Positions 14,035-53,792 are shown, numbered from the stretch's first letter. The stretch: DNA of 64,000 bases from Candidatus Aenigmatarchaeota archaeon (GCA_016432325.1 CP066684.1:265018-329017); one strand, 5' to 3'. The notes: generated by a model not told the origin, from the sequence alone. Translations and numbers: made by a program.

Positions 14035-14051
14035 ATATAACACTGTTATAT
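14035..14051. repeat. 17-bp perfect palindrome ATATAACACTGTTATAT (copy 1 of 4)
   Basis: Sits 50-66 bp upstream of the HTH/HEPN operon start (13985) and is followed by a TATTTAAGG TATA-like element. Confidence 0.6.
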
Positions 14052-14771
14052 TTCCTTGCCTGTCACAAACGGCGCCCTCCCGAGAAGCGCCTGCGCGAAC
14101 TCCGCCTCCGTTATGACCGCCGGCTTGAGCAACTTGATCCCCGTCAGCAGCTCCTTCGGCGCGTCCAGCTGGCCGCAGATGCCGATGGCGCGGGCTTCCA
14201 CGCCGTCCGCCGCCGAGAGTTTCTTGAGAATCTTTTCATCGGTGCCGAGGGAAAGCACCAGCACGAAATATTTTGTAAGCGCGTCTAGTATCGAAAGCTT
14301 GTCCGTATGAACGAAGCCATAACTCGGAACGGAGAAGGCCGCTGTTAGCAGTCTCTCCTGGACCTCCTTCGAATAGAAGAATCGTTCGAGTAGTTCATAA
14401 TCCTTCGTAGTCGGCAGGCGTCCGCCGGCCTCCTTGACGCGCTTCCTCGCGTCCGCGGCCGCGTCATCCCAATATTCCCACAGCGGCTTCAGCGTCGATT
14501 GGTAGAAGACCATTCGCCCGTAGCGGCCGTTGGCCGCCCGCTCGTACTTCTTGATGCCGCGGACGCGCTTCAGGTATTCGTCCCTCGAAACGTCAGCCTT
14601 CGCTACGTAGCCGCGGCTGCGCAGCCACTTCAGCTCGGCGATGAGATACTTCTTCGACGTCCGAACCGTCGCCTGAAGGGTCTTCAGGCTCTGAGGCGCG
14701 ATGAGCGTCATCAGATAGACGCTGAGCGTGAGAGTCTTTGCCAGCTTCGCGTAGGGCCGTGTGCGCTTCAT
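14046..14771 (-). CDS. Hypothetical protein (241 aa), element-borne
   Basis: High-GC ORF with coding-like composition; no recognisable motif. Confidence 0.35.
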   Translation of the reverse strand: MKRTRPYAKLAKTLTLSVYLMTLIAPQSLKTLQATVRTSKKYLIAELKWLRSRGYVAKADVSRDEYLKRVRGIKKYERAANGRYGRMVFYQSTLKPLWEYWDDAAADARKRVKEAGGRLPTTKDYELLERFFYSKEVQERLLTAAFSVPSYGFVHTDKLSILDALTKYFVLVLSLGTDEKILKKLSAADGVEARAIGICGQLDAPKELLTGIKLLKPAVITEAEFAQALLGRAPFVTGKEI

Positions 14772-14897
14772 AATACAACGTTCACGCGCCCGGTTAAATA
14801 GGCACGTGCCCTAAGGTTTCCTAAAAGCAACTTCTGACGCCCGACGAGGAACCTTAAGCGGGTGATAACTATATACCACCGCCGGTAGTAAACTGTC

Positions 14898-15176
14898 ATG
14901 GCAAACAGAACCCGCGCGACGTTCACACTCGGTGTAAAGACCGTCGCGCGCTTGCGCGAAGCGTCCGCGATTGCCGGCCTGCCGATGTCGCAGTTGTGCG
15001 AGCAGGCCATTCTTGAAAAGGCGCGGAGCCTTCTGAAAAACGGCAATGGCCAGAAGCAGTGCAACGGTTCTTCATCCCCGATAGTCTGCCTCATAGTCGC
15101 CATTCTGAAAAAGTTCCTGGGAATCCCAGAGCAGAACGGTAACAAGAACGGAGCTGGTAACGGTGCCAATAATTAG
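14898..15176 (+). CDS. Ribbon-helix-helix (CopG/Arc-like) protein
   Basis: N-terminal ATFTLGVKTVARLREASAIAGLPMSQLCEQAILEKA RHH pattern. Confidence 0.4.
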   Translation: MANRTRATFTLGVKTVARLREASAIAGLPMSQLCEQAILEKARSLLKNGNGQKQCNGSSSPIVCLIVAILKKFLGIPEQNGNKNGAGNGANN

Positions 15177-15292
15177 GTTTGAGTCTCTGGAGGAGTTCTT
15201 CGCCTACATCGAGGAGCAGGGACGCAAGCGCGGCGTGGTGCTGATGAAAGAGCCGCCTGCGGCACCGGCGCCCAAGAAGGAGGTCGAACGCC

Positions 15293-15577
15293 GTGGACGC
15301 TGACGAGATGCTTCCGAGCGTCAAGGGTTGGCGGTCGGCGGGTCTGAGCCAGATGGACATCGTGATAATGGTGCTCCGGCGGAACATGCCCGGCGTTTCG
15401 CAGAGGCTGTTGGCCGAAATACTGGACATAAAACAGCCGGCGATAGCGCGGCGAGTCAGGACGCTCGAGAGATTCGGCTTCCTGAAGGAACGAAAAGAGG
15501 TGGTTGAGTATGAAGGCAAGATACGAGAGCAAGAGATTCCTGTGCGGCGACAAGCGGTCGCTGAGATTGGAGCTTGA
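15293..15577 (+). CDS. Winged-helix (MarR-like) transcriptional regulator
   Basis: GVSQRLLAEILDIKQPAIARRVRTLERFGFLKE. Confidence 0.4.
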   Translation: MDADEMLPSVKGWRSAGLSQMDIVIMVLRRNMPGVSQRLLAEILDIKQPAIARRVRTLERFGFLKERKEVVEYEGKIREQEIPVRRQAVAEIGA

Positions 15578-15848
15578 AGGCGGGGACTTGGCGTTGTTGT
15601 CCAAAGGCCCGCTCGCGGCGACTGCGCACTACAAAGGCGAGGCGCGGCCTGTTGAGCTGCGCATCGGCGAACATAAAGAGGAGCTGCGTTTGGATTCGCA
15701 GAGAGGAACGATGGACGACGCGAAGAATTACGTCGTGACGATGAGCCGCGGCGCGTACGAGTCGCTAGGGCCCGGAATGTTCGCCGGTGTCAGCGGACGG
15801 GACTACTGCGGAGGGGAGATACATGTGTCGACCGAAGAAAAAGATTAG
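15504..15848 (+). CDS. Hypothetical protein (114 aa)
   Basis: ORF only; overlaps its neighbours. Confidence 0.2.
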   Translation: MSMKARYESKRFLCGDKRSLRLELEGGDLALLSKGPLAATAHYKGEARPVELRIGEHKEELRLDSQRGTMDDAKNYVVTMSRGAYESLGPGMFAGVSGRDYCGGEIHVSTEEKD

Positions 15849-15996
15849 GATCGTCAGCTCGCGGCTCACGACCGATATGAACGGCTTCCTGAGACGCGAG
15901 TGCTGCCGCCTGCGCGTCACAAGAAGCGAGTTCATACGCGTGTTCCTGTGGAAGGAATTGGCGCAACGCCTCAAGGCGATGGAGGCGTCGTTATGA
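15823..15996 (+). CDS. Ribbon-helix-helix (CopG-like) protein
   Basis: KKIRIVSSRLTTDMNGFLRRECCRLRVTRSEFIRVFL; the internal Met at 15823 is the likely start. Confidence 0.35.
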   Translation: MCRPKKKIRIVSSRLTTDMNGFLRRECCRLRVTRSEFIRVFLWKELAQRLKAMEASL

Positions 15997-16182
15997 CACA
16001 GCTCATAAGCTATCGCGGCCTGATGAGGCTCTACGAACTGTGGCGCGGCGGCTCGTCCATGCCTCCGGGATGGCGCGAGTCGGTTCGCCGTTACGTCGTT
16101 CATAAGCGCTGCCGCGTCCTGATTGACAGCGACGGCGTATCGCAGCTCGCCCAGGCGGAGCAGATGGCCAAGATGATGTTCG

Positions 16183-17475
16183 GTGGTGCGGATGCGCAAA
16201 TGCCTGTTTGAAGGATGCACGGCGGAGGTGGAGGATTCATACCCTCTCGATTTCTGCGCGGCGCACAGGGAGGCGCCGGATGAAAGAATTACGGCACCGA
16301 TGTCTCTTGATGAACTCAAAGAAATCCTCGGCGTCACAATCAAAGCCGACGACACGAACAAGGTTATAACGTTTCTCGCTATGCTGACTGCGTTCACCGA
16401 GGACGCGCAGATTAATGTTTCGTTCCGCGCGCCATCGAGCACCGGCAAGTCTTACATACCTTTAGAAATCGCTTCTCTCTTCCCCAAAGACGACATAATA
16501 GAAATCGCCTATGCTAGCCCGACAGCCTTCTTCCACGACCGCGGCGAGTGGGACGCGGAGACGGGATGCCTCAAAATAAACCTTGAGAGAAAGATAATGA
16601 TTTTCGTGGACATGCCGCACGATTCGCTGCTTCACCGATTGCGTCCGCTTCTTTCGCACGACCGCAAGGAATTAATCTTCAAAATCACAGACAGGAGCGA
16701 CAAGAAAGGATTGAGAACGAAGAACGTCATACTGCGCGGCTACCCTTCGGTTGTCTTCTGTACGGCCTCTTTGAAAATGGATGAACAAGAATCCACGCGC
16801 AACGTTCTGTTGAGCCCCGAAACGAACCAAGAAAAGCTGCGAGAGTCCGTTCTGCTCAAGATCCGCAAGAACGCCGATGTGAAGACATACCAAGACTGGC
16901 TGATGAGCGATTCGCGGCGCGAAATCCTGAAGGCGCGCGTCGAGCAGATTAGGAACGCGAAGATAGACAACGTCATAATCCCGGACACGGCGCGCATCCA
17001 AGAACGTTTCCTCAACCGCAAGCTGAAGCCGCGCGACATGAGGGACGTGGGGCGGCTGATGTCCATCGTAAAGGCAGTCGCCCTGCTTAACTTTTCCCAC
17101 AGGGAACGGCGCGGCAACGACCTTGTCTGCAGCGCGGACGACATAAACACTGGCTTCGCCGTCTGGGGCGACATAGAGCGGTCGCAAGACTTGGGAGTGC
17201 CGCCGTACATTCTGCGGGTTTTTGACGAGGTTATAATGCCGCTGGCCGGGAACGGGGGAATCCAGCGCAAGCGGATAGTCAGCAAGCACTACGAGGTCTA
17301 TGGCAAGCCTCTGCCCGACTGGCTGCTGAGACAGCAGATATTGCCATCGCTGGAGGCTGCCGGACTCGTCTATCAGGAGGTCGATCCCGAGGATCGGCGC
17401 CAGCTCCTCATCCAAGTTTCACCCGCACCCGCTACTCACGGTATCTCTGGGTCGCTGGAAAATACCGTGAGTTAA
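16183..17475 (+). CDS. Element replication/packaging-type P-loop NTPase with an N-terminal Cys-rich region
   Basis: 430 aa; N-terminal CxxC...CAAH; Walker A RAPSSTGKSY; Walker B KIMIFVDM. Confidence 0.5.
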   Translation: MVRMRKCLFEGCTAEVEDSYPLDFCAAHREAPDERITAPMSLDELKEILGVTIKADDTNKVITFLAMLTAFTEDAQINVSFRAPSSTGKSYIPLEIASLFPKDDIIEIAYASPTAFFHDRGEWDAETGCLKINLERKIMIFVDMPHDSLLHRLRPLLSHDRKELIFKITDRSDKKGLRTKNVILRGYPSVVFCTASLKMDEQESTRNVLLSPETNQEKLRESVLLKIRKNADVKTYQDWLMSDSRREILKARVEQIRNAKIDNVIIPDTARIQERFLNRKLKPRDMRDVGRLMSIVKAVALLNFSHRERRGNDLVCSADDINTGFAVWGDIERSQDLGVPPYILRVFDEVIMPLAGNGGIQRKRIVSKHYEVYGKPLPDWLLRQQILPSLEAAGLVYQEVDPEDRRQLLIQVSPAPATHGISGSLENTVS

Positions 17476-17488
17476 GACTGGGGGTAAG

Positions 17489-17503
17489 TATAACAGTGTT
17501 ATA
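17489..17503. repeat. Palindrome TATAACAGTGTTATA (copy 2 of 4; 15 bp perfect within the 17-mer)
   Basis: Lies exactly at the GC-to-AT compositional break after the rep gene (ends 17475). Confidence 0.6.
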
Positions 17504-17504
17504 T

Positions 17505-17985: not shown

Positions 17986-20598
17986 ATGGAACGCCAAGAA
18001 GTCAGGGCACAGATCAAAACTCTTGTAGAAGACTTCAAGGCAAACTATACTTCATACAAATCCCGCTCCGAAGCTGACATAGAGCAACTTGTGCTACGAC
18101 TCTTCAAGATTCTTGGTTGGACAGACGTCAACGACGTTTTCCAGCAAGTTAAGACGCACCGAGGCGAAAAACGAGGTAGAGCCGACTTCGCCTTCAAAAT
18201 CAATGATAGGACAGTTTTCTTTTTGGAAGTAAAGAAGATGGGCGTACCTTTGGATAAAGAGGCGGATAGACAGGTTATATCGTATGCTCTATCTCAGAGA
18301 ATACCGTTCGCCGTATCGACAAACTTCGAGGAATTAAAGCTCTTTTGTGTTGAAGCGTTCGATAAGAAAGATCAGGTTTTCAGAGTCTTCAGGTACGAAG
18401 ATTACTCGATCAAAGATGATTTGTTTCTTCTGTCGAAGGAGAGTTTCGCTTCGGGTAACACGTTGAAAGAAGCTGAAAGCGAGGGTCGACTGAAGAAGAG
18501 AGTAACCATCGACAAACCGCTTTTGGAAGACCTCATGCATATCCGCAGTCTCGTAGCAGGCGACATAGAAAAAAGTTACCCGGACAAATACGAACTCAAT
18601 GAGCGCGACGAAATAATTCAGAGAATAATAGACCGCTTGATTTTCATACGTCGGTGTGAGGATGTGGGCATGAACCCAGAGGGTCAAACGCTCGAAGAAA
18701 TCAAACATCTTTCAGACGAGAAAGCGTATCCTAAACTGAAACAACTCTTCGCTAAGTATAATGATGTCTACGATAGCGGCTTATTCTCGATTGGCACGGA
18801 TAATGATTGTGATAGAATAACGATCGATGGGTCTATCATTCACAAGCTTGTAGGATACCTCTATGAATCCAAGAACGGTCAGTATATTTACAACTTTGAC
18901 TGGATAGATGCCGACGTACTTGGACAAGTGTACGAACAATATCTCGGTAAAATACTCGCACAAACAAAATCAGGTAAAACGAAACTTAAGGAAGGACAAG
19001 CGCATCGTAAGGAACAGGGAATATACTATACTCCCACCTACATTGTCAATTACATTATTAAGAACACTGTTGGCGCTAAACTAAAAGAGAGGAAAATTAA
19101 CGTGAACGATATTTCGATACTCGATCCTGCTTGTGGGTCTGGATCATTTCTTATCAAGGCATTTGACGAGATGTATAACTATAGACGGGGTAAAGGCGGC
19201 ACGGATCAGCGTAAATTTGATACACAAGGCATTTACTCCATTAAAACCGAAATTCTTAAAAACAATATTTTCGGTGTCGATCTTGACAACAAAGCCGTGG
19301 AAATAGCTAAATTAAATCTACTCTTAAAGGCGGCAGAGAACGGACGCCGATTACCGAAGGAATTAGACGCTCACGTCAAGCGTGGTAATAGTATTATAGA
19401 TGATGAAAAAGTTGTGGGCGCCGATGCGTTCCGTTGGGAGAGTGAATTTACAGATATCGTAAAACAAGGTGGATTTGACATCATTATAGGCAATCCGCCT
19501 TATGGGGCAGAGTTGAAGGAAAACGAAAGGGAATACATTTCTCGGAAATATGAAACCGCGAAATCGTACAAAAATACAGCGCTTGTTTTCATAGAGAAAT
19601 CGATGAATCTATTAAAAGATGGAGGATACTTTGGAATGATTGTACCAAAGTCCTTGGCATATAGCCAAGCGTGGAAACCATGTAGAGACTTCATTAAGAA
19701 GGACATGATTTTGTTAGTTGATGTTAGCAAAGCCTTTGAAGATGTTTTATTGGAACAAGTTATATTCATTATACAAAAGGGCAGTGGCAAAAAGTCCTAC
19801 ATTGTAGAAAACATTGATACCGGCTCTAAATTTACTGTGGACAAATCATTCATAGATAAAATCGATTCCTTGATAGTTCATGACAGTAGAGAAGACTTCG
19901 AAGTGTTCAAACATCTTATGTCCTCTCCATTACAAATGAAGAGTGTTTCCAAAACAAGTCGTGGATTGCCGCTCCAGAAGTTTATAACCAAAAAGAAAAC
20001 ACCATATAAAATATTTCGTGGGGTCAACATTTCCCGCTATCACCTTGGGGATAGTACAGACTTCTTAGAGAAAATCGATGCTACAAATACAAAGGTTAAA
20101 CAGCTTCTTCAACCTAAGATAATTTCACAGAGAATAGTGGCTCATGTAACACGCCCAAAGGACCATATCATAATCATGTCTGCATTGGATGGAGAAGGAC
20201 AGTTAAATGTGGATACTGTAGAAAATACCACTCTAACCGATAAGAAATACAAGCTAGAGACTATTTTGGCTATAATGAACTCCGAATTGATTTCATGGTA
20301 TGCATACAGGTATATCTTCGGTAAAGCCATTAGAACTATGGATTTCGATGATTACTATGTTGGTAAAATACCTCTGCCTCATACATCTAAATCTGTTGAA
20401 ACTGCTCTAACCGAGAAGGTTTCAAGAATAAATGACCTTAACAAAAAAGTTCATCAGTTGGGCGATAAGAAAACGGCCGAGACTGCTAAGCTCGACGAAG
20501 AAGTCAAGAAGACTAATGCGGAGATAGACGAACTCGTCTACAAGATATACGGGGTAACGGACGCCGAGAAGAAGACTATTAAAGAAAGCTTAAATTAA
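17986..20598 (+). CDS. Type IIG (fused REase-MTase-TRD) restriction-modification enzyme, gamma-class N6-adenine methyltransferase
   Basis: 870 aa. HsdR_N-like N-terminus with PD-(D/E)xK (ADFAF...FLEVKK); motif X VLGQVYEQYL; GIYYTPTYIV; motif I ILDPACGSGSFL; motif IV IIGNPPYGAE; ~300-aa C-terminal target-recognition region. ~40% GC. Confidence 0.7.
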   Translation: MERQEVRAQIKTLVEDFKANYTSYKSRSEADIEQLVLRLFKILGWTDVNDVFQQVKTHRGEKRGRADFAFKINDRTVFFLEVKKMGVPLDKEADRQVISYALSQRIPFAVSTNFEELKLFCVEAFDKKDQVFRVFRYEDYSIKDDLFLLSKESFASGNTLKEAESEGRLKKRVTIDKPLLEDLMHIRSLVAGDIEKSYPDKYELNERDEIIQRIIDRLIFIRRCEDVGMNPEGQTLEEIKHLSDEKAYPKLKQLFAKYNDVYDSGLFSIGTDNDCDRITIDGSIIHKLVGYLYESKNGQYIYNFDWIDADVLGQVYEQYLGKILAQTKSGKTKLKEGQAHRKEQGIYYTPTYIVNYIIKNTVGAKLKERKINVNDISILDPACGSGSFLIKAFDEMYNYRRGKGGTDQRKFDTQGIYSIKTEILKNNIFGVDLDNKAVEIAKLNLLLKAAENGRRLPKELDAHVKRGNSIIDDEKVVGADAFRWESEFTDIVKQGGFDIIIGNPPYGAELKENEREYISRKYETAKSYKNTALVFIEKSMNLLKDGGYFGMIVPKSLAYSQAWKPCRDFIKKDMILLVDVSKAFEDVLLEQVIFIIQKGSGKKSYIVENIDTGSKFTVDKSFIDKIDSLIVHDSREDFEVFKHLMSSPLQMKSVSKTSRGLPLQKFITKKKTPYKIFRGVNISRYHLGDSTDFLEKIDATNTKVKQLLQPKIISQRIVAHVTRPKDHIIIMSALDGEGQLNVDTVENTTLTDKKYKLETILAIMNSELISWYAYRYIFGKAIRTMDFDDYYVGKIPLPHTSKSVETALTEKVSRINDLNKKVHQLGDKKTAETAKLDEEVKKTNAEIDELVYKIYGVTDAEKKTIKESLN

Positions 20599-20664
20599 CG
20601 TCTGAGACTTGACCCAATACACCATATGGAAAGGGTTTAATAGCTTTGTCCATTCACATTATAC

Positions 20665-21759
20665 ATGGTCAGGGATAGTCTAGAATTCTTTGATGCTGAC
20701 GGAGAATTTTTAAAAAGAATAGAGTCCGTCAAGTCAATTGGACCTACGCCCCGTAAGGTCATTCTCTTTATCCAAGATTCAGAAATGCCTTTTTTGAAAC
20801 TGATTAAGCAATGGATTCCTGCTAGATATGAAGGCACTATTTGTAAAACAGAAGAATTTGATAGATTCGACGTAGCGGAGCTTACTATAAAAAATAGAGA
20901 TTTAGAAGGCGCTTTATACAAATGTTCTCACTGTGGTCAAGAAATTCCCAAAGAAGAACTTTTTGAATATGGACAAAACATGCAGAACTTACTTGTATTC
21001 CCTAAAAATAGTCCCGTCTTTTTCTTGGTAACAAATAAAGGTTCCCATGAACTGGACGCCGATTTAGGCTTCTTCAAAGCACTTTATCCCTTCGTATCTC
21101 GTGTACGATTCCGTTCGTACCAACTAAAACAAATGCTAGACGTTCTTCCTAATAAAACCGATATAGTTATTTCAGAATACGTTGCTAAACGTTATTATGG
21201 CGAAAAAAAGACAATCGAACTTCACCAAAAGGTGGACGTTGATACGGCATTTCTTCAAGCGGCTAAGGAAAATACCTGGATTGACAGCATTCTTCTGGAA
21301 GTTGATGGAAAGAAAATACGATTGGCGCGAAACGGAAGAATACAATACTATCAGTCGTATCACTTTAGCAACATCTTCAGTCAACTGATTAAACCAATAC
21401 TGCATAACCTAACAGCAAACTATGAAAATGTTCTAAGAAATCGCTCTCGGACAATTGCTAACCCGGCGGCCAAACCTATAGTATTTAAAACGGAAAAACC
21501 AGTTTTTACTTCTCAGAATGCTGGTATCGAACTGATAAAACGACTTGGCCGCCTACGGGGAATAGAAATAGCACAAGTCAATAGCGACGACCAGATGCCG
21601 GAGTTGATGGTAAAAGATTACACGTCTGGAGCAAGCTACTCAATAGACGTCGTAGCCGAGAATATGATAGTTATGACACCACAGACAGGCGTACGAGAAA
21701 TTTCTCTTAATAGAGTCGTGAATAAAATACTAGAAGATTTTGACTGTGAGGTAATCTGA
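20665..21759 (+). CDS. Hypothetical protein (364 aa) with a CxxC pair, AT-rich cassette
   Basis: CSHCGQ motif; ~36% GC; its stop overlaps the next start (TGATG). Confidence 0.4.
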   Translation: MVRDSLEFFDADGEFLKRIESVKSIGPTPRKVILFIQDSEMPFLKLIKQWIPARYEGTICKTEEFDRFDVAELTIKNRDLEGALYKCSHCGQEIPKEELFEYGQNMQNLLVFPKNSPVFFLVTNKGSHELDADLGFFKALYPFVSRVRFRSYQLKQMLDVLPNKTDIVISEYVAKRYYGEKKTIELHQKVDVDTAFLQAAKENTWIDSILLEVDGKKIRLARNGRIQYYQSYHFSNIFSQLIKPILHNLTANYENVLRNRSRTIANPAAKPIVFKTEKPVFTSQNAGIELIKRLGRLRGIEIAQVNSDDQMPELMVKDYTSGASYSIDVVAENMIVMTPQTGVREISLNRVVNKILEDFDCEVI

Positions 21760-22889
21760 TGGTTGCTCCAAAACACACGAAAGATGATGTAGACAGTTAT
21801 CGGGAGGCCGTTTTGGCTAATATTGTTTTTAAAAAGTATTTGAAAGAAATATGGAATGTTGGATACGATCTATATTTCGGTGCTAGACTAGTCTATGATA
21901 AAGACAAACCAGCGGTAACGCCCGATTTGTTTCTTAAAGGTACTTCGAGTAATGATATTGTAGGGGATATTAAACGTTCTTTGCCGTCAAATTTCCCTAA
22001 CAGTTTGGAGTCCAAAAACTATATGGAATGGGCCAGGGGGGAAGGTGGAAAAGGTTTCGTTATGCAGATGTTGGATGTAAGTCTAACACAAAAGTTAAAG
22101 AAATATGATAGCGAATTTCTCAATTGTACGAACCCACATGATATTTTATTTATCCTGCACGAAAGAGCACAGAGAACATACATGCTCTGGAAGAGACATT
22201 TACCGTACATCCCACGAAACAATCTGGTTGGTCTACAATATCATGTTTCTAGAGGGTCTAGCGTCAAAACACTTAATATCGGAATACTAGACGGACAGTT
22301 CTCAGATCAGGGCTTAGGCGAATTCTTCAGAGATAACCCAATAGCTTGGCACTTTAACGAAGAATCCCAGCTAATCGGAGAATACAAAATTGCTGTAGTT
22401 GACGAGGGCCATCAGCCACCAAAAGAATATGTGATGCTCATTCTGTGGCAAAACATTTTTGATGAAATTCTGAGAAACAAATACTCAGAAAGTCTTTTGG
22501 ATAGAGTGAAAATACTAGAACAAGGATTAAATCCAGTTATAGTTGTGGATTTGGATACCATTATAGAATACCTTAGTAAATATTATATATTACCATATTA
22601 TGATACCGCCGACAACTCACAGGACACAAGGAGACAGTTCACGAGAAGCCTTGTAAAAGATGCAATGAACTCATTTACTGAAATTGATATAACCGATGTA
22701 ACGAAGGTAGACGGGGGAACAAATCCCGCGTATAAAATAGTCTATCAACCGCTGTCTAAAGGACAGGATGCCTTGCAAGTCTTAATAGACGCGTTGTCTG
22801 ATGCGGGAATTTTAGAAAAGGAAGTGGTCGATATCCCGAGACAGATTGATCTAACATCATTTACCGATAAAGACAGTGATACTCGATAG
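21759..22889 (+). CDS. Hypothetical protein (376 aa) with an N-terminal PD-(D/E)xK-like nuclease motif
   Basis: TPDLFLKGTSSNDIVGDIKR (PD...D-I-K); translationally coupled to the upstream ORF. Confidence 0.4.
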   Translation: MVAPKHTKDDVDSYREAVLANIVFKKYLKEIWNVGYDLYFGARLVYDKDKPAVTPDLFLKGTSSNDIVGDIKRSLPSNFPNSLESKNYMEWARGEGGKGFVMQMLDVSLTQKLKKYDSEFLNCTNPHDILFILHERAQRTYMLWKRHLPYIPRNNLVGLQYHVSRGSSVKTLNIGILDGQFSDQGLGEFFRDNPIAWHFNEESQLIGEYKIAVVDEGHQPPKEYVMLILWQNIFDEILRNKYSESLLDRVKILEQGLNPVIVVDLDTIIEYLSKYYILPYYDTADNSQDTRRQFTRSLVKDAMNSFTEIDITDVTKVDGGTNPAYKIVYQPLSKGQDALQVLIDALSDAGILEKEVVDIPRQIDLTSFTDKDSDTR

Positions 22890-23275
22890 AGTGTAGAGAG
22901 TTAGAGGAGTAGCCAATTGAAGTCCCAAAAATAAGGTATATAAACATCCTCACCAATCAATTATTCAATATGCTCCCCAGTCTTGTACGCCGGCTCGTCC
23001 GGCGGCAACACTGGGTTATTCTCTCTTTTCCTTGATGCATTCTAAGGCTTCTAGAAGGCTGTGTTTGACGCAACGACTAGACTACGAATTTCGATGTATC
23101 AAACAATTTAGATTTTATTCTAACTCCACCTTCTGCTTCCACCTGGGCCACTCGGTGATTCCCCCTTTCACTCGTAATTCTCCGTGCCTTGGAAATGTTG
23201 GTGGCCTGAACCAGAACCTTTCCTAATCTATGGACGTTAATCCAATCATCACTGTCCACGGGAAAAGTTACTGGG

Positions 23276-23674
23276 TTATTCATCTGTCTCACTCATTTTT
23301 CCTGCTTTTACAAACTTGTCAAAAACTCGTTGTACCTGCTCGCCAGAAAGGGCCAATTCTGTGGAGACAAAAAAGACGGATAGTTTCGTATTACCAGCAC
23401 TCTTTTCTCTCAATATTAGTTGTGTTATCTCCTTTTCTGCTTCCATATCACTTATCCTCCTGTCTTTAGTGATCGATTCGTGCATCCCATGCATTTCATG
23501 TTGCCTTCTCAATGAGACTACCTCTTGGCGAAGGAAATCAACCTCATCCTCAAGACTTCTCAGTCTCTGTTGTTGCGCCCTAAAAACAGGCAGAGGGATG
23601 GATAGACGCTCGAAAACGGTTTGTATAGGCTCGTCTTCTCCAACAATGTCTATTGCACGTCTGATGGTTGCCAT
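23276..23674 (-). CDS. Hypothetical coiled-coil protein (132 aa)
   Basis: AT-rich ORF downstream of the integrase on the same strand. Confidence 0.3.
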   Translation of the reverse strand: MATIRRAIDIVGEDEPIQTVFERLSIPLPVFRAQQQRLRSLEDEVDFLRQEVVSLRRQHEMHGMHESITKDRRISDMEAEKEITQLILREKSAGNTKLSVFFVSTELALSGEQVQRVFDKFVKAGKMSETDE

Positions 23675-23678
23675 ACAT

Positions 23679-23942
23679 TCACCTACTTATCATACTCTTT
23701 ACCTTTTGCAAAAACTCCGGATCTGGTGATTCTATGTGCAGTATTTTGTCTTCAACTTCCTTCTTGTTTTGGTGGCTCATTATCAATGGAATGGGCATGT
23801 TGTTTTTTACCTTTACCAGAACAATGCTCGCTGGCATTATATCTTTATCCATTTGAGATAGATTAGACGCGAATTCTTTATCAAAGAGATCCCCAAGGCC
23901 CACACCATGCAATCGCACGCTCTCTATTTGTTCCATGAACAC
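23679..23942 (-). CDS. Hypothetical protein (87 aa)
   Basis: ORF between the integrase and 23276-23674, same strand. Confidence 0.3.
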   Translation of the reverse strand: MFMEQIESVRLHGVGLGDLFDKEFASNLSQMDKDIMPASIVLVKVKNNMPIPLIMSHQNKKEVEDKILHIESPDPEFLQKVKSMISR

Positions 23943-24048: not shown

Positions 24049-24065
24049 ATATAACACTGTTATAT
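24049..24065. repeat. 17-bp perfect palindrome ATATAACACTGTTATAT (copy 3 of 4)
   Basis: Overlaps the integrase stop codon at the AT-to-GC compositional break. Confidence 0.6.
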
Positions 24066-25298: not shown

Positions 25299-25312
25299 TG
25301 GTGCGATGGCCG
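25299..25312 (+). repeat. Candidate att core, right copy
   Basis: TGGTGCGATGGCCG is identical to 12288-12301 and lies 61 bp upstream of the integrase start. Confidence 0.25.
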
Positions 25313-25334: not shown

Positions 25335-25382
25335 TCGTAGGGGTTAAAGGGGCGCCGAAGTGCCACTTTTTTGAACCCGGGC
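25335..25382 (+). repeat. ~50-nt intergenic repeat, copy A
   Basis: TCGTAGGGGTTAAAGGGGCGCCGAAGTGCCACTTTTTTGAACCCGGGC is ~85% identical to 27787-27840. Confidence 0.5.
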
Positions 25383-41914: not shown

Positions 41915-41962
41915 ACACAACAGGTTGTGGTTGCGCACGTTCGCGAACACAACAGGTTGTGT
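41915..41962 (+). promoter_or_regulatory. Tandem NrdR boxes upstream of nrdR-nrdJ
   Basis: ACACAACAGGTTGTGG at 41915-41930 and ACACAACAGGTTGTGT at 41947-41962 are 16-bp palindromes of the ACAC...GTGT type. Their starts are 32 bp apart and the second ends 20 bp before the nrdR GTG. TTTATATAT lies upstream at 41883-41891. Confidence 0.6.
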
Positions 41963-42437: not shown

Positions 42438-42443
42438 GGGGGG

Positions 42444-45467: not shown

Positions 45468-45504
45468 ACTCAATCCTTTTATTTCGGCTGAACGAACTAT
45501 ATCC

Positions 45505-49676: not shown

Positions 49677-50936
49677 ATGGCCAAGAAAACAACGAAGAGA
49701 GCGCAGAAAAAAGTTGCGGCAAAGAAGGCCGATGCAACGAAGCGTGAGCAGGCCGCAGCGCCGAAGACCAAAATCCGCTATGACCGCATCCTCGTCCGTT
49801 ACGGGGAGATGGCCCTCAAGAGCGACGTTGTGCGACGCCGCATGGAAGACCGCCTTCTCGGGAACATTCGAAGCGGTCTGGACAAGATGCAGATAAAGTA
49901 CGTCCTGCACAAGGAGATGGGCCGCATCTTCGTCGAGACCAGACAGATTGAAGAAACGGTCGGCGTACTCACACACATCTTCGGACTCGTCAGCGTATCG
50001 CCGGTGCAGACGCGCGTCATAGGCTCGTCTCTCGAGAAGATAGCCGAAACGGCCGAGAGGATAGGGCGCACGTTCATCACGTCGAAAGATACGTTCGCGT
50101 TGCGCGCACGGCGGACGGGCAACGAGAACTTCACTTCAAAGATGATAGAACGCGAGGCCGGAGGCCGCGTGCAGGACGCCACGCAGGCGCGCGTGGACCT
50201 AGACAACCCGGACAAGACTCTGTACGTCGAGGTTCGCCAGAACAAGGCATATTTCTACATCGAAGAACACGCCTGTCCGGGCGGCCTTCCTTTGGGAACA
50301 CAGGGGCGCGTTGTCATTCTCTTTTCGGGTTCTGTCGATGCCGCGGCGGCCGCGTGGCTGATGATGAAACGGGGCTGTACCGTAGTTCCGATATACTTCG
50401 AGTCCTCCCCTTACACGGACGCGTCCACAGACGAACGCGCGGCGCGCGTCTTCGAAACGCTTCGGGAATGGTCGCATGGCAACAAGATGTCATTGAGACG
50501 CGTACCGCACGGCAAGGCGCTGTTCATGTTCACGGAAGAATGCCGCGACGAACATCTTGACGTGCTCTCGAAGAGACAGATGCTTCGCGTGGCGAATCTT
50601 ATCGCCAAGCAGGAAGGCGCGCGTGCTGTCGTGACGGGCGACAACCTCAACCAGAACGCCTCGCAGACTCTCGAGAACATGGCCGTCGTCGACCGCGCGT
50701 CAGAACTGCCCGTGTTCAGGCCCGTCCTCACGTGGGACAAGGAGGAGATACTGAAGCTGGCGCAGAGAATCGGAGCGTTCGAGGCGGCGACAAAGGAAGT
50801 GAAGCCCGCCCCGCGCTCGCGCAGGTCGTTCCCCGCTGTGCGTCTGGAGGACATCGAACGCGAAGAGCAGAAGGTGGACGTAAAGAAACTGGCCGAGGAG
50901 GCCGCCGAACCCGTCAGCTCCAAAACTTCTTCGTGA
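49677..50936 (+). CDS. thiI: tRNA sulfurtransferase ThiI-like (THUMP + PP-loop), with a Lys-rich N-terminal extension
   Basis: ILVRYGEMALKS THUMP start; PP-loop region VVILFSGSVDAAAAAWLMMKRG (SGGxDS replaced by SGSVDA); TGDNLNQNASQTLENM; start taken at the first ATG. Confidence 0.6.
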   Translation: MAKKTTKRAQKKVAAKKADATKREQAAAPKTKIRYDRILVRYGEMALKSDVVRRRMEDRLLGNIRSGLDKMQIKYVLHKEMGRIFVETRQIEETVGVLTHIFGLVSVSPVQTRVIGSSLEKIAETAERIGRTFITSKDTFALRARRTGNENFTSKMIEREAGGRVQDATQARVDLDNPDKTLYVEVRQNKAYFYIEEHACPGGLPLGTQGRVVILFSGSVDAAAAAWLMMKRGCTVVPIYFESSPYTDASTDERAARVFETLREWSHGNKMSLRRVPHGKALFMFTEECRDEHLDVLSKRQMLRVANLIAKQEGARAVVTGDNLNQNASQTLENMAVVDRASELPVFRPVLTWDKEEILKLAQRIGAFEAATKEVKPAPRSRRSFPAVRLEDIEREEQKVDVKKLAEEAAEPVSSKTSS

Positions 50937-53769
50937 TCGCGAACTGGCGCTCGGCGTCGAGCACGTCGCGCAGCATGCCGTTTTCATCCGCCCGCTGCTT
51001 TGCAAGCACGCGTATCGTTGTGTCAGGACCGACGCCGCGGCCGGCCAGGCACACGACAGCGCGCCGACCGTAAGTCAGAACAAGGTCGGCGGTGTCCTGC
51101 AGCTTCGACAAGCGCAACGCGTCTTCCGCAGAGAGCTTCTTGCCTTCGGCGCTCTTCTTTATCAGAATCTCGGATTCCCGCGCGAACGGTTTTATCACGG
51201 CGAGCATACGGGACGCGCACTTCGGGCATTCCGGGTCCTCGCGCACGTCGCGCACGAGCTTGTTCGTCGCAAAGTCTCCGCACTTCATGCACACGAGACG
51301 CACCTGCGTTCCGAGCAGGCGCTCGCGGAACACCTCGAATATCTCCTTGTCCGGCCTTTTCGGACCGACGAGCTCGCGGAACTGGTATTCTATGCCGCGG
51401 CGGCCTATGGGCGAGATTGCGTTCGCAGTGACGAGTTTGACTTCGCCTGCCTTTACCTCCGTGAACATCTCCTTGGTCTTCTGCACATCAAGTTTCTCGA
51501 AGAGAACCTCGTTCTTCGCCTCTTCGGAGACCGGCGTGTCTGCGAATGCGTCGACCATTTTCTTCAGGTTCAGTTTGTCCCATTTCGCGCGCCTCGTAAC
51601 GGCGCCGAAGCGCTTTGCGACGTGCACGAGCCTCCAGCGGAACATCTGCGTGAGCCCGAGCGTCTTCAGTATGACGTCATGCAATTCGTCCGCGGAGTTC
51701 TCCTTTATCAGCGCCTCTATCGCGCCCTTGTCAACGCCTTGGAATATTATTCTGTACGGATCGTTTTTTATGGCAATCGAATGACCGAACTGAGAGGAGA
51801 GCAGAACCGCGAAGAAGCGCGCGAGTGTGGCGTTCACCATCGCGCCGAAACAGGCGTGCATCACTACGAAATCCTTGTCGTTTTGAAACCCATCGGGTTT
51901 CAAATACTTCGAAGCATCGCTTCGAAGACCCTCCAGTACAACCGTCCGATCGTCAGGCACAACAGCGCCGGCTTTGAGCTGTTCTCCTATGTAAGAAACG
52001 AGCTTGGATGCCGCGCCCTCCGACAGAGGGTATCGATGTCTTATGCGTTCTATGACGTCGCCTTCTTTCTCGCCGCTCTTCATCGCCTCGGCTATCATGC
52101 GCCTCAGCGCGCCAACCTCCTGCGCAATCTCGAACGGAACGGGTATCAGTTCGCCTTCCCACGCAGGAACCGCGGACGTCATGTCGTCCACTGGTTCTAC
52201 CAGGACGCGGCCCTCGTATACGGAAAGGATGCGCCACGGAGTGCCTTTCACGATGAACGTCGTGCCCGTGTTTCCGTGCTCGGCGACGAATGTCTCGTCG
52301 AGAACGCCCACGTGCGACTGGTCGAGGTTGTTGACTACGTGGTACTGGTAGATGTCCGGAATCGTGGAAAGGTTTGAGTAGTAGTACTCCCATGCTTTCT
52401 TGCGGCGCCTGAGCACCGCGGCGTCTCTCCAAACCATGTTCAGGTCCGCGACGTAAGCGAGCACGGCGTCGAACGTCTCGCGGTCAAGGTTGCGATATGG
52501 ATACGCGTTCCTGAACAGCGCGTACATCTCGTCGGGGTTCTGGTCATAGCTCTCGAGCGCCATCCCGACAATCTGATTGGCCATCACGTCCAGAGGCATC
52601 GGATATATCTCCGTTGGTTCCAGCTCGCCTGCCAGAGCGCGCCGCGCGATGACCGCGCTTTCCAGTATGTCGTCCGCGTCGCCGGCGACTATGACTCCCT
52701 TGCTCTTCTCTCCTATCCGGTGGCCAGAGCGGCCGACGCGCTGGACGAGCTTCGAGACCTGCCGCGGGGAAGTGTGCTGGACCACGAGGTCTATGGAACC
52801 GACGTCTATGCCCAACTCAAGCGACGAAGTGCATATCAAAGCCTTCACGCTCTCGGCTTTCAGCGAGTCTTCGGCCTTGATGCGCACTTCCTTGCTCAGG
52901 CTCGAGTGGTGTATGTCGTGCGTCCACGTCTTGTCCATCTTCGTCAAACGCGAAGAGAGGACTTCCGCAGACTCGCGCGTATTGGTGAATACAAGCGTAG
53001 ACTTGTGCTTCGTAATCAGGTCTTTTATCGCGTGCAAACGCGCGGCCACGTCCGCCCCTATGTAGAGCTTCTCAGCGACCGCCTTGTCTTCCGGAGACGG
53101 CGTCGGGGATATCACCTCTATCCCGAAGTATTTCGACGCCGCGGCATTCACGATGCGCGCGGTGGGCGCGATGAACTCGGCTACGCGTTCAGGCGAGCCG
53201 ACTGTTGCCGACAGGCCCACGGTCTGGAACTTTCCCGCAAGCTTGCGCAGCCGCGCGAGCCCGACGCTCAGCTGCGTGCCGCGCTTGCTCTCCACAAGCT
53301 CGTGTATCTCGTCCACGACCACCCATTTCAGGTTTTTGAGAGCCTCGCGCAGCTTCGGGGCCGTGAGCATCGCCTGGAGCGTTTCCGGAGTCGTGATAAA
53401 CATGTGCGCGGGGAAAGCGGACTGTTTCGAGCGTTCGTACTGCGTGGTATCGCCGTGGCGGACAGTGAGGTCCAACTCAAGGCGTTCGGCCCACCATTTC
53501 AGACGCTTGAAAAGGTCGCGGTTGAGGGCGCGGAGAGGCGTTATGTAAAGTATCGAAATTGGTGCCGGGCGCGTCGACGCCCACATGGAGAAGATGGGCA
53601 ACATCGCTGATTCGGTTTTGCCGATGCCTGTAGGCGCAAGCACGAGAACGTCCTCGCCTTTGAGGATTACAGGCGCGGCCAGCTTCTGGACCGGAGTAGG
53701 GTCTGTCCAGCCACGTTCGCGTATCGCCGCCTGAAGTTTCTTGTCGAGTTCTTCGAACACCCTAATCAC
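50914..53769 (-). CDS. lhr: Lhr-like large ATP-dependent helicase (superfamily 2)
   Basis: APTGIGKTESA; DEIHELV; SAT. The start is probably the GTG at 53769 or 53760 (VIRVFEELD...PTPVQ), not the upstream ATG at 53835. Confidence 0.7.
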   Translation of the reverse strand: MIRVFEELDKKLQAAIRERGWTDPTPVQKLAAPVILKGEDVLVLAPTGIGKTESAMLPIFSMWASTRPAPISILYITPLRALNRDLFKRLKWWAERLELDLTVRHGDTTQYERSKQSAFPAHMFITTPETLQAMLTAPKLREALKNLKWVVVDEIHELVESKRGTQLSVGLARLRKLAGKFQTVGLSATVGSPERVAEFIAPTARIVNAAASKYFGIEVISPTPSPEDKAVAEKLYIGADVAARLHAIKDLITKHKSTLVFTNTRESAEVLSSRLTKMDKTWTHDIHHSSLSKEVRIKAEDSLKAESVKALICTSSLELGIDVGSIDLVVQHTSPRQVSKLVQRVGRSGHRIGEKSKGVIVAGDADDILESAVIARRALAGELEPTEIYPMPLDVMANQIVGMALESYDQNPDEMYALFRNAYPYRNLDRETFDAVLAYVADLNMVWRDAAVLRRRKKAWEYYYSNLSTIPDIYQYHVVNNLDQSHVGVLDETFVAEHGNTGTTFIVKGTPWRILSVYEGRVLVEPVDDMTSAVPAWEGELIPVPFEIAQEVGALRRMIAEAMKSGEKEGDVIERIRHRYPLSEGAASKLVSYIGEQLKAGAVVPDDRTVVLEGLRSDASKYLKPDGFQNDKDFVVMHACFGAMVNATLARFFAVLLSSQFGHSIAIKNDPYRIIFQGVDKGAIEALIKENSADELHDVILKTLGLTQMFRWRLVHVAKRFGAVTRRAKWDKLNLKKMVDAFADTPVSEEAKNEVLFEKLDVQKTKEMFTEVKAGEVKLVTANAISPIGRRGIEYQFRELVGPKRPDKEIFEVFRERLLGTQVRLVCMKCGDFATNKLVRDVREDPECPKCASRMLAVIKPFARESEILIKKSAEGKKLSAEDALRLSKLQDTADLVLTYGRRAVVCLAGRGVGPDTTIRVLAKQRADENGMLRDVLDAERQFAITKKFWS

Positions 53770-53775
53770 CTGAAA

Positions 53776-53792
53776 ATATAACAGTGTTATAT
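53776..53792. repeat. 17-bp perfect palindrome ATATAACAGTGTTATAT (copy 4 of 4)
   Basis: Immediately upstream (7-16 nt) of the probable lhr start, in the chromosome outside the element. Confidence 0.6.

What the first reader, a model, noticed from the sequence alone, without database searches (positions are those of the whole stretch)
14035..53792. Four copies of one 17-bp perfect palindrome (ATATAACA-S-TGTTATAT) placed at cassette edges and at the lhr promoter
Copies sit at 14035-14051 (upstream of the HTH/HEPN operon), 17489-17503 and 24049-24065 (the two edges of the AT-rich RM cassette), and 53776-53792 (7-16 nt upstream of the probable lhr start, outside the element). Identical 17-mers at four sites are far beyond chance. 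The site could be a shared operator or TATA-overlapping promoter element, or a recombination site used for cassette insertion.
Basis: seen in the sequence. Interest (0 to 1): 0.6.

Follow-up and report, generated by a model that had tools for sequence, protein, structure and literature searches.

The report
Conserved archaeal operator-like palindrome, reused by mobile element
The repeated 17-base palindrome is real and is most likely the docking site of an unidentified DNA-binding protein of Aenigmatarchaeota and related DPANN archaea. It marks the replication origin and the promoters of the lhr helicase and several other genes, and an integrated mobile element in this window carries three further copies.

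Summary
Three exact copies of ATATAACASTGTTATAT lie at 14035, 24049 and 53776, and a one-mismatch copy at 17488; no shuffle reproduces this.

The source is an Aenigmatarchaeota MAG. The core TATAAC-N3-GTTATA is a conserved cis-element.
- It precedes lhr by 0-15 nt in about 15 diverged lhr loci, and 16 of 17 hits in 560 kb fetched via Lhr sit there.
- It lies inside the oriC core (ORB, palindrome, AT-rich stretch, ORB, cdc6) in 11 loci, including 4 of 4 fetched without reference to the motif.
- It recurs upstream of Fe-S/sulfur genes (iscS/iscU, sufC, tusA/dsrE), hjc, a metallophosphoesterase and NAC/polB.

Overall, 54% of archaeal sites lie within 60 nt upstream of a gene start, against 11% of random positions.

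In the window, sites 1-3 sit at the 5' ends of three low-GC cargo operons of a roughly 13-kb integrase-bearing element. A related element (L219) has the motif elsewhere and none at its junctions, so the recombination-site reading is not supported.

Best reading: an operator for an unidentified host dimeric DNA-binding protein, co-opted by the mobile element. In bacteria the same word is a TetR-family operator, apparently independently. The protein's identity and the direction of regulation are inferred, not shown.

The parts
14035..14051 (.). Palindrome copy 1 (ATATAACACTGTTATAT). It overlaps the stop codon of the 241-aa backbone ORF (14046-14771, -) and lies 49 nt upstream of the ArsR-like wHTH gene that opens low-GC cargo operon A.
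17488..17504 (.). Palindrome copy 2 (GTATAACAGTGTTATAT; one mismatch, 15-bp core exact). It lies 13 nt after the stop of the 430-aa P-loop backbone gene and upstream of the plus-strand RM operon. A second small palindrome, AAACAACAAATGTTGTTT, follows directly.
24049..24065 (.). Palindrome copy 3 (ATATAACACTGTTATAT). It overlaps the integrase stop codon and lies 112 nt upstream of the 85-aa gene (ATG 23936) that opens a minus-strand operon of three small genes.
53776..53792 (.). Palindrome copy 4 (ATATAACAGTGTTATAT), 15 nt upstream of the lhr start. It is the only copy outside the mobile element and the one conserved in orthologous loci.
50914..53760 (-). lhr (large helicase-related; DEAD, Helicase_C, WH_Lhr and DEAD_assoc domains). 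Start GTG 53760 is inferred from alignment to orthologues.
53765..53771 (-). Shine-Dalgarno-like AGGTGAT between the palindrome and the lhr start, conserved in orthologous loci.
   Evidence: alignment A4
53819..53832 (-). Semi-conserved block TTAGTGTACTATCC (consensus TAGTGTAtTATTA) about 25 nt upstream of the palindrome. It may be the TATA region of lhr, which would place the palindrome at the transcription start.
   Evidence: inference
12392..13985 (-). Low-GC cargo operon A: ArsR-like wHTH (105 aa), HTH (81 aa) and HTH plus Swt1-like HEPN (274 aa).
14046..17475 (.). GC-rich backbone module of the element: a 241-aa ORF on the minus strand and a plus-strand operon ending in the 430-aa P-loop protein. 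It is homologous to the backbone of the related element L219.
17986..22889 (+). Low-GC cargo operon B1: a type IIG Eco57I/MmeI-like restriction-modification enzyme (870 aa) and two ORFs of unknown function.
23077..23936 (-). Low-GC cargo operon B2: three small ORFs (85, 132 and 71 aa) downstream of copy 3.
24060..25238 (-). Tyrosine integrase (392 aa, C-terminal Cys-rich tail). It is 100% identical to a protein of an NCBI 'Candidatus Aenigmatarchaeota archaeon' MAG.
12288..12301 (+). Left copy of the 14-nt exact direct repeat TGGTGCGATGGCCG. This is a candidate attL, but about 0.6 such repeats are expected by chance.
25299..25312 (+). Right copy of the same 14-nt repeat, 61 nt upstream of the integrase start. 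This is a candidate attR.

Best explanation
The palindrome (core TATAAC-N3-GTTATA, usually the full ATATAACA-S-TGTTATAT) is most likely the recognition site of a host-encoded, sequence-specific DNA-binding protein, probably a homodimer, conserved in Aenigmatarchaeota and related DPANN archaea.

At lhr the site lies in the core promoter or initial transcribed region, ending 0-15 nt from the start codon. A bound protein there would block TBP/TFB or RNA polymerase, so the most likely action is repression. The same site is built into the chromosomal replication origin, between an inverted ORB and the AT-rich unwinding region. It also recurs at promoters of DNA-repair genes (nth, hjc, a metallophosphoesterase), Fe-S/sulfur-relay genes (iscS/iscU, sufC, tusA/dsrE) and NAC/polB. 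That points to one regulator coupling origin activity with repair and Fe-S supply.

In this window an integrated element of about 13 kb (integrase, ORFan backbone, low-GC defence cargo) carries three copies at the 5' ends of its three cargo operons. This most likely places the cargo under the host factor's control, as bacterial mobile elements do with LexA boxes. The copies sit at G+C boundaries because they belong to the AT-rich 5' regulatory ends of acquired operons that abut the backbone genes.

Shown: the sequence, its non-random placement, and its conservation across genomes. Inferred: protein binding, repression, the stress-regulon theme, and co-option by the element. The identity of the factor is unknown.
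For: Statistics in the window:
- Three exact copies and one near-exact copy, against 0 in 100 shuffles.

Conservation upstream of lhr:
- A scan of one genome per species found the exact 17-mer 13-14 nt upstream of Lhr orthologues in two other Aenigmatarchaeota MAGs, L047 and L067, which are 56% identical in protein.
- Of 80 lhr loci fetched by protein only, all 5 closest and about 10 more carry the core just upstream of lhr. Sixteen of the 17 core hits in about 560 kb are in that position.
- In the alignment of nine lhr upstream regions, only the palindrome arms and the start codon are invariant.

Presence at the replication origin:
- Seven motif-fetched loci have the palindrome upstream of orthologous Orc1/Cdc6 genes, followed by the PolD small subunit.
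- Four of four cdc6-containing loci fetched via an unrelated neighbouring gene have their perfect cores there.
- The arrangement ORB, palindrome, AT-rich stretch, ORB is conserved in the nine origin loci aligned.
- There are about 9 copies in 350 bp in Nanohaloarchaeota locus L064.

Placement and other targets:
- 25 of 46 archaeal sites lie within 60 nt upstream of the start of an ORF of at least 100 aa, against 10.7% of random positions.
- Recurrent targets were confirmed by Pfam/NCBIfam: cysteine desulfurase near 7 of 42 loci, plus NifU, TusA, DsrE, FTR1, AhpC, Hjc and a metallophosphoesterase.

Form of the site:
- Some sites change symmetrically at the +/-1 positions (A..T to G..C) and others asymmetrically. 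The six arm positions are near-invariant (this set was selected with at most one core mismatch, so arm invariance is partly imposed).
- In bacteria the identical word lies next to about 50 TetR-family genes, showing it is the kind of sequence an HTH dimer reads.

The mobile element:
- The related element L219 also carries one perfect core, in a promoter region.
Against: - No cognate protein was identified. Element-encoded HTH proteins are excluded as the general factor.
- No TetR, Fur/PerR or IscR homologue was found in about 1 Mb of archaeal loci held.
- The conserved HTH_3-DRTGG protein next to oriC has no site in its own promoter in the four motif-independent loci that contain cdc6.
- The distance from site to start codon varies from 0 to about 250 nt, so a single promoter geometry does not fit all sites. 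At oriC the site is not in a core promoter.
- The set of neighbouring genes is heterogeneous and was partly collected by searching for the exact word, which is an ascertainment bias.
- No transcription start sites or binding data exist.
- For sites 2 and 3 the first downstream genes are 112 to about 480 nt away, so their regulatory role is the weakest part of the argument.
Confidence: 0.68

Rival explanations
1. Replication-origin element. The palindrome is primarily a site for a replication protein (an Orc1/Cdc6 mode of binding, a second initiator or a loader). The three copies in the mobile element would then mark or support its own replication or segregation, like iterons or parS/KorB sites, and the promoter copies would be secondary.
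For: - It is an integral part of the oriC core, between ORBs and next to the AT-rich stretch, in 11 loci. Up to about 9 copies lie upstream of cdc6 in Nanohaloarchaeota.
- Copies 1 and 2 bracket the backbone module that encodes a P-loop protein.
- The centre CAGTG resembles the centre of ORB dyads.
Against: - Canonical ORBs with G-strings co-occur in the same origins and have a different sequence.
- No ORB with a G-string occurs in the element.
- The tight, conserved position 0-15 nt before lhr in many genomes is typical of transcription control, not replication.
- In Aenigmatarchaeota origins there are only one or two copies.
Confidence: 0.15
2. Generic core-promoter element. The palindrome would be two back-to-back TATA/BRE-like boxes forming a strong bidirectional promoter read by TBP/TFB alone, with no dedicated regulator.
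For: - Both halves contain TATA-like ATATAA/TTATAT.
- It often lies between divergent genes: nth/lhr in L067, L124 and L137; hjc/iscS in L043; sufS/sufC in L004; moeB/dsrE in L118.
Against: - The non-TATA positions (AAC...GTT) are as invariant as the TATA-like ones.
- Distances to start codons (0-5 nt in several lhr loci, 150-250 nt at cdc6) do not fit a fixed TATA-to-start spacing.
- About 9 copies in 350 bp in L064 is not promoter-like.
- In about 560 kb around lhr genes it occurs only at lhr, not at other promoters.
Confidence: 0.08
3. Recombination or insertion site. Cargo cassettes would be inserted or exchanged at the palindrome by the adjacent tyrosine integrase.
For: - Sites 1-3 coincide with sharp G+C transitions.
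- Two backbone ORFs, including the integrase, end inside the palindrome with ...ATA TAA.
- Site 3 abuts the integrase gene.
Against: - The centre is 1-3 bp, whereas tyrosine recombinase cores need a 6-8 bp overlap (established knowledge).
- Copies 2 and 3, which flank the RM island, have opposite centre bases, and their flanks are not repeated.
- The related element L219 has no copy at the integrase 3' end or at the cargo/backbone junction, and L220-L223 have none at all.
- The same word is conserved at host promoters and at oriC in genomes without such elements.
- A different 14-nt direct repeat (12288 and 25299) is the better att candidate.
Confidence: 0.05
4. Nucleic-acid hairpin: a transcript-level stem-loop (terminator or stability element) or a DNA cruciform.
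For: - It is a perfect inverted repeat.
- Three copies lie 0-13 nt after a stop codon.
- A few variants keep the pairing, for example ACGGCGT.
Against: - The 17-mer folds at only -2.0 kcal/mol.
- Z-scores of the folded flanks are -0.04 to -1.9.
- At site 3 the minimum-energy fold does not use the palindrome.
- No T-run follows it.
- Asymmetric variants that break the pairing occur.
- It works in both orientations relative to genes and inside oriC.
Confidence: 0.03

Closest known systems
Bacterial TetR-family operators (tetO-type odd-centred palindromes)
   Same: The identical 17-mer, often as two overlapping copies, lies between -35/-10-like boxes next to about 50 autoregulated TetR-family genes of roughly 205 aa and ABC transporters in Firmicutes, Treponema and others. 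The architecture is the same: inverted arms around a single centre base, as in tetO (CTATCA-N-TGATAG).
   Different: No TetR-family protein was found in about 1 Mb of archaeal loci carrying the motif (profile search; tblastn). The archaeal targets (oriC, lhr, isc/suf) are unrelated to the bacterial ones. The shared word is most likely convergent.
LexA/SOS boxes, including those on mobile elements and integron integrase promoters; Deinococcus DdrO with its 17-bp RDRM palindrome
   Same: A short palindromic operator overlaps core promoters of DNA-repair genes and is copied by mobile elements to tie their genes to a host stress regulator. The RDRM is also a 17-bp 8-1-8 palindrome read by an XRE-family repressor (from my own knowledge).
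   Different: The sequence is unrelated and no LexA or DdrO/IrrE homologue was identified. Here the site is also inside oriC and at Fe-S genes. A damage response is inferred, not shown.
Transcription-factor sites inside replication origins (Caulobacter CtrA, B. subtilis Spo0A boxes; Sulfolobus Orc1-2 as DNA-damage regulator)
   Same: One sequence-specific factor has sites both in the origin core and in promoters of a regulon. In Sulfolobus an Orc1/Cdc6 paralogue links origins with damage-response promoters (from my own knowledge).
   Different: The motifs are different. The canonical ORBs here are separate from the palindrome. Only one Orc1/Cdc6 gene was seen in the origin loci examined.
Archaeal origin recognition box (ORB / mini-ORB)
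   Same: It is located in the oriC intergenic region upstream of cdc6, has dyad symmetry and has a CAGTG-like centre.
   Different: It lacks the TTCCA..TGGAAA arms and the G-string. True ORBs flank it in the same origins.
NrdR boxes
   Same: The window encodes an NrdR homologue (41982-42437), and the NrdR-box-like palindromes also contain AAC..GTT.
   Different: The tandem boxes upstream of nrdR-RNR are CACAACAGGTTGTG (41914-41962), with a different word and spacing. The 17-mer is absent from the nrd operon, so NrdR is not its factor.

Membership tests
Palindromic transcription-factor operator | Inverted-repeat symmetry compatible with a dimeric reader | tested here: met
   An 8-1-8 perfect palindrome; the arms TATAAC/GTTATA are near-invariant in sites from loci fetched without reference to the motif, noting these sites were selected with at most one core mismatch.
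Palindromic transcription-factor operator | Non-random placement in promoter-proximal DNA | tested here: met
   25 of 46 archaeal sites lie within 60 nt upstream of the start of an ORF of at least 100 aa, against 10.7% of random positions. Sixteen of 17 hits in 560 kb of lhr loci are directly upstream of lhr.
Palindromic transcription-factor operator | Conservation upstream of orthologous genes in diverged genomes (phylogenetic footprint) | tested here: met
   lhr: about 15 loci at 43-57% protein identity, with only the palindrome arms and the start codon invariant. cdc6: 11 loci.
Palindromic transcription-factor operator | A cognate DNA-binding protein that binds the site and changes transcription | not testable with these tools
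   No factor was identified. Candidates examined: element wHTH proteins (excluded), HTH_3-DRTGG (weak), NrdR (own boxes), and TetR/Fur/IscR (not found).
Tyrosine-recombinase core / att / dif-type site | Two inverted binding arms separated by a 6-8 bp overlap region | tested here: not met
   The arms are separated by 1 bp (17-mer) or 3 bp (15-bp core).
Tyrosine-recombinase core / att / dif-type site | Directly repeated copies bounding the inserted DNA | tested here: not met
   Copies 2 and 3, which flank the RM island, have opposite centre bases and unrelated flanks. A different 14-nt direct repeat brackets the whole element.
Tyrosine-recombinase core / att / dif-type site | The same site at the junctions of related elements | tested here: not met
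   L219 (integrase 49% identical, backbone 60-77% identical) has no copy at the integrase end or the cargo junction. L220-L223 have none.
Archaeal ORB | Location in oriC next to cdc6 | tested here: met
Archaeal ORB | ORB consensus (TTCCA-N-TGGAAA dyad plus G-string) | tested here: not met
   The palindrome lacks both features. Canonical ORBs lie beside it in the same origins.
TetR-family operator | Adjacent or co-occurring TetR-family regulator gene | tested here: not met
   Met in about 50 bacterial loci. Not met in archaea: no hit with a profile of 42 of those proteins in 1.04 Mb of archaeal loci.
Intrinsic hairpin / terminator | A stable stem-loop followed by a T-run | tested here: not met
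   The fold is -2.0 kcal/mol and no T-run follows.
Fur/PerR-type 7-1-7 box | A 7-1-7 AT-rich inverted repeat at iron/oxidative-stress genes, with a Fur-family protein present | tested here: inconclusive
   The architecture and some targets (FTR1, AhpC, suf/isc) resemble this type. The half-site differs from TGATAAT/TTATAAT, and no Fur/PerR homologue was found in the loci held. Whole genomes were not available.

The most novel reading that the evidence does not exclude
The palindrome is the operator of a so far undescribed master regulator of DPANN archaea. This regulator would bind inside the chromosomal origin core and at the promoters of lhr, nth, hjc, a metallophosphoesterase, polB/NAC and the Fe-S/sulfur-relay genes. 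It would thereby couple replication initiation to DNA repair and Fe-S supply, as an archaeal counterpart of CtrA- or LexA-type circuits. Integrative defence-island elements would plug their cargo into the same circuit. The conserved HTH_3-DRTGG protein encoded beside oriC would be one testable candidate.
Probability: 0.3. Interest if true: 0.8.

Novelty: new member of a known kind. Interest (0 to 1): 0.62.

Why it matters
Almost nothing is known about gene regulation or replication control in DPANN archaea, which are uncultured or grow only with hosts.

A 15-17 bp word conserved at least across Aenigmatarchaeota and Nanohaloarchaeota gives a concrete handle. It marks both the origin core and the promoter of a conserved repair helicase. 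It defines a candidate regulon. It allows the regulator to be found by DNA-affinity capture or by phylogenetic profiling on complete genomes. It also suggests that origin firing, DNA repair and Fe-S biogenesis are co-ordinated by one factor.

The finding further shows a mobile defence island wiring its restriction-modification and HEPN cargo to a host operator, much as SOS-controlled elements do in bacteria.

If the site turns out to be only an ordinary operator of a minor regulator, the finding is routine.

Tried and rejected
- **Element-encoded wHTH/HTH/HEPN proteins, the integrase or the 430-aa protein as the binder.** None has a homologue in any other motif-bearing locus.
- **The palindrome as the ORB.** Canonical ORBs sit beside it. 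An ORB-like dyad inside the element (15943) lacks a G-string and is at chance level.
- **NrdR.** It has its own tandem boxes at its operon.
- **A TetR orthologue in archaea.** No tblastn or profile hit.
- **Fur, PerR or IscR.** No hits in the loci held.
- **Autoregulation of HTH_3-DRTGG.** The motif lies in its promoter in only one locus (L025). None of the four motif-independent loci that contain cdc6 has it there. Its fold (XRE HTH plus a DRTGG-like domain) was obtained but does not link it to the site.
- **Alternative arrangements in Logan contigs.** An apparent rearrangement (a '241-aa' gene next to the integrase in L002) was a truncated gene call. One contig end was a Nextera adapter. No empty-site or excision junction was found.
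- **PHROGs on backbone proteins.** Only the integrase matched.
- **Rfam and tRNA scans of the window.** Nothing found.
- **Viral-contig scan.** It gave 11 hits, several with a second adjacent or overlapping copy, in low-G+C contigs that look like bacterial phage; not informative.
- **Literature searches** for the motif string and for DPANN regulons or origins found nothing relevant.

Full report
**Observation.** An exact search finds ATATAACASTGTTATAT at 14035-14051 and 24049-24065 (centre C) and at 53776-53792 (centre G). Allowing mismatches adds only 17488-17504, GTATAACAGTGTTATAT. None of 100 dinucleotide-preserving shuffles gives a single exact match. The window averages about 54-57% G+C, with two low-G+C islands at roughly 12.0-14.0 kb and 17.5-24.0 kb. 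Copies 1-3 sit exactly at the transitions.

**Context in the window.**
- The source is an Aenigmatarchaeota MAG. The integrase at 24060-25238 is 100% identical to an NCBI protein of 'Candidatus Aenigmatarchaeota archaeon'. Logan contigs from SRR12113430 match the window at 100% identity.
- Gene content by Pfam/NCBIfam:
  - hicBA at 11765-12185;
  - low-GC operon A (12392-13985, minus strand): ArsR-like wHTH, HTH, and HTH plus Swt1-HEPN;
  - a GC-rich ORFan module (14046-17475) ending in a 430-aa P-loop protein;
  - low-GC island B, with a type IIG Eco57I/MmeI-like RM enzyme and two unknown ORFs on the plus strand (17986-22889), and three small ORFs on the minus strand (23077-23936);
  - the tyrosine integrase.
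- A 14-nt exact direct repeat, TGGTGCGATGGCCG, at 12288 and 25299 brackets all of this. It is a plausible att pair for an element of about 13 kb, but about 0.6 such repeats are expected by chance.
- In gene orientation, each of copies 1-3 lies at the 5' end of one of the three low-GC operons: 49 nt from the first gene for copy 1, 112 nt for copy 3, and 132-481 nt for copy 2. Each is also 0-13 nt from the stop of the preceding GC-rich gene. Two of those genes end inside the palindrome, with ...ATA TAA.
- Copy 4 lies 15 nt upstream of the lhr start GTG 53760, the start fixed by alignment to orthologues. A Shine-Dalgarno-like AGGTGAT lies between them.

- About 50 are bacterial. There the word, often as two overlapping copies beside TTGACA-like boxes, lies immediately upstream of a TetR-family gene of about 205 aa, or of ABC transporters.
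- About 42 are archaeal, far more than the small share of archaea in the collection would give. They are dominated by Aenigmatarchaeota and other DPANN (Nanohaloarchaeota, Nanoarchaeota) plus unclassified archaea.
- Clustering the flanking ORFs and annotating them gives these recurrent neighbours:
  - Lhr orthologues (L047, L067), with endonuclease III (nth) divergent from lhr across the motif in L067;
  - Orc1/Cdc6, followed by the PolD small subunit (7 loci);
  - cysteine desulfurase within 4 kb in 7 of 42 loci;
  - IscU/NifU, SufC-like ATPases, TusA (two loci) and DsrE (a dsrE-tusA-iscS-iscU operon in a Sulfolobales MAG);
  - FTR1 iron permease and AhpC/Bcp;
  - Hjc, a metallophosphoesterase of about 230 aa, Nudix hydrolases, LigT, RtcB and NAC.

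**Tests free of ascertainment bias.**
- *lhr loci.* Eighty lhr loci were fetched from metagenomes by protein similarity alone.
  - The core TATAAC-N3-GTTATA (up to one mismatch) occurs 17 times in about 560 kb, and 16 of these are just upstream of lhr.
  - All five closest orthologues (55-57% identity) have it 10-14 nt before the start.
  - Several loci at 43-48% identity have variants 0-14 nt before the ATG.
  - Four more have it 74-148 nt upstream.
  - Most loci at 40-47% identity lack it, so the link is lineage-restricted.
  - An alignment of nine upstream regions shows invariance only in the two palindrome arms and the start codon. It also shows a conserved SD and a weaker block (TAGTGTAtTATTA) about 25 nt further upstream.
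- *Origin loci.* Five loci were fetched through an unrelated neighbouring gene, the HTH_3 protein. All four that include cdc6 have their perfect cores in the cdc6 upstream region. This holds even where transposons have moved cdc6 away from its usual neighbours. One of them also has a core between polB and NAC.
- *Placement.* 25 of 46 archaeal exact sites lie within 60 nt upstream of the start of an ORF of at least 100 aa, against 10.7% of random positions in the same loci.

**Origin architecture.** Aligning the cdc6 upstream regions shows a constant order:
1. an inverted ORB-like dyad (ttccatcggaaa);
2. the palindrome;
3. 35-45 bp of very AT-rich DNA;
4. a canonical ORB with G-string (tccattagaaac..ggggtgg);
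5. cdc6.

The palindrome is therefore part of the oriC core but is not the ORB. In Nanohaloarchaeota the region carries 4 to about 9 copies.

**What the site is.**
- The symmetrised profile from loci fetched without reference to the motif has near-invariant T-A-T-A-A-C arms (the sites were selected with at most one core mismatch, so this is partly imposed). It has A, or less often G, at +/-1, and C or G at the centre.
- Both symmetric (ACGGCGT) and asymmetric (ACGGTGT, ACAGCGT) variants occur.
- The hairpin is worth only -2.0 kcal/mol and is not favoured in context. No T-run follows it.
- These features, the promoter and origin placement, and the fact that bacterial HTH dimers use the very same word, all point to a sequence-specific, probably dimeric, DNA-binding protein.
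- At lhr the site ends 0-15 nt from the start codon. Either it overlaps the TATA box, if the mRNA is nearly leaderless, or it sits at the transcription start, if the upstream TATTATTA block is the TATA box as the conserved SD suggests. In both cases binding would hinder pre-initiation complex assembly, so repression is the likeliest action. This is an inference.

**Which protein?** This remains unresolved.
- The element's own HTH proteins have no relatives near any other copy.
- NrdR, encoded at 41982-42437, has its own tandem boxes, CACAACAGGTTGTG, at 41914-41962.
- No TetR, Fur/PerR or IscR homologue was found in about 1 Mb of archaeal loci.
- A very conserved protein of about 240 aa lies in the block hjc / HTH_3 / metallophosphoesterase / cdc6. 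Its homologues are 63-75% identical across Aenigmatarchaeota and Nanoarchaeota.
- Its model (pLDDT 79) is an XRE-type HTH followed by a DRTGG-like domain (Foldseek E only 6e-3). It is a candidate by position and conservation only. Its own promoter lacks the motif in the four motif-independent loci that contain cdc6.

**The mobile element and the recombination idea.**
- Homologues of the integrase (about 400 aa, C-terminal zinc ribbon) are widespread in DPANN. In the loci examined they lie next to RM or defence cargo.
- L219 is a true relative of the window element. Its integrase is 49% identical, its 530-aa P-loop protein is 60-77% identical, and it shares a small backbone gene.
- L219 has no palindrome at the integrase 3' end or at the cargo/backbone junction. 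It has one perfect core about 90 nt upstream of its backbone operon. L220-L223 have none.
- Together with the 1-3 bp centre and the opposite centre bases of copies 2 and 3, this argues against a crossover site.
- Three copies in 13 kb compares with roughly one site per several hundred kb outside specific promoters in the motif-independent loci. That density suggests selection in the element.
- The simplest reading is that AT-rich cargo operons, probably acquired from other DPANN genomes where the same factor exists, carry or have acquired the host operator at their 5' ends. This would keep RM and HEPN genes under host control. This reading is an inference.

**Comparison with known systems and verdict.**
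- The element behaves like a classical palindromic operator and regulon.
- Its presence inside oriC recalls CtrA or Spo0A sites in bacterial origins, and the dual role of Sulfolobus Orc1-2.
- Its reuse by a mobile element recalls LexA boxes on bacterial elements.
- It fails the tests for an ORB, an att/dif-type core, an NrdR box and a hairpin terminator.
- Four literature searches found no description of it.
- I classify it as a new member of a known kind: an operator of an unidentified regulator. Interest is moderately high because of its phylogenetic breadth in DPANN and its position in the origin core.

Noticed in passing
window 41914-41962 and 41982-47849: An archaeal NrdR homologue (Zn-ribbon plus ATP-cone) is preceded by two copies of CACAACAGGTTGTG spaced about 34 bp apart. 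It is followed by two ribonucleotide reductase genes, one of them class II B12-type and 1007 aa long, and by a PduO-type adenosyltransferase. This looks like a bacterial-style NrdR circuit in a DPANN archaeon.
   Followed up: partly
window 12288-12301 and 25299-25312: A 14-nt exact direct repeat, TGGTGCGATGGCCG, brackets the integrase-bearing element of about 13 kb. It is a candidate attL/attR pair, but chance expectation is about 0.6 and no empty site or junction reads were found.
   Followed up: partly
window 17506-17523: A second palindrome, AAACAACAAATGTTGTTT, lies directly after copy 2. It shares the AACA..TGTT core but with different spacing. Its function is unknown.
   Followed up: no
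window 25335-25355 and 27787-27807: A 21-nt repeat, TCGTAGGGGTT[A/C]AAGGGGCGC, occurs in two intergenic regions flanking the DEAD-box helicase and acetyltransferase genes. It is unexplained.
   Followed up: no
window 11765-12185: A hicB-hicA toxin-antitoxin pair lies immediately left of the candidate attL.
   Followed up: no
L216-L218, L224, L225 (also L025, L117): A conserved Aenigmatarchaeota block reads hjc, HTH_3-DRTGG regulator, metallophosphoesterase, then (oriC) cdc6 and the PolD small subunit. The HTH_3-DRTGG protein is unusually conserved (63-75% identity) and is uncharacterised.
   Followed up: partly
L094 3706-3937: Four copies of the palindrome lie in a 70-bp tandem repeat directly downstream of a DEAD-box helicase homologous to window 25648-27213, in a related uncultured archaeon.
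   Followed up: no
L219-L223: The DPANN integrase family of about 400 aa with a C-terminal zinc ribbon is repeatedly adjacent to restriction-modification or defence cargo (Dcm plus Vsr; Eco57I/XhoI plus HEPN plus GmrSD). This suggests a family of integrative defence islands.
   Followed up: partly
L065 versus L107; L074: Contigs binned as Thorarchaeota (L065) and Thermotogae (L074) carry near-identical or syntenic Aenigmatarchaeota-type genes around the motif. They are probably mis-binned.
   Followed up: no
L203 3' end: A Logan contig ends in the Nextera adapter sequence CTGTCTCTTATACACAT. This is an assembly artefact, not a biological junction.
   Followed up: yes
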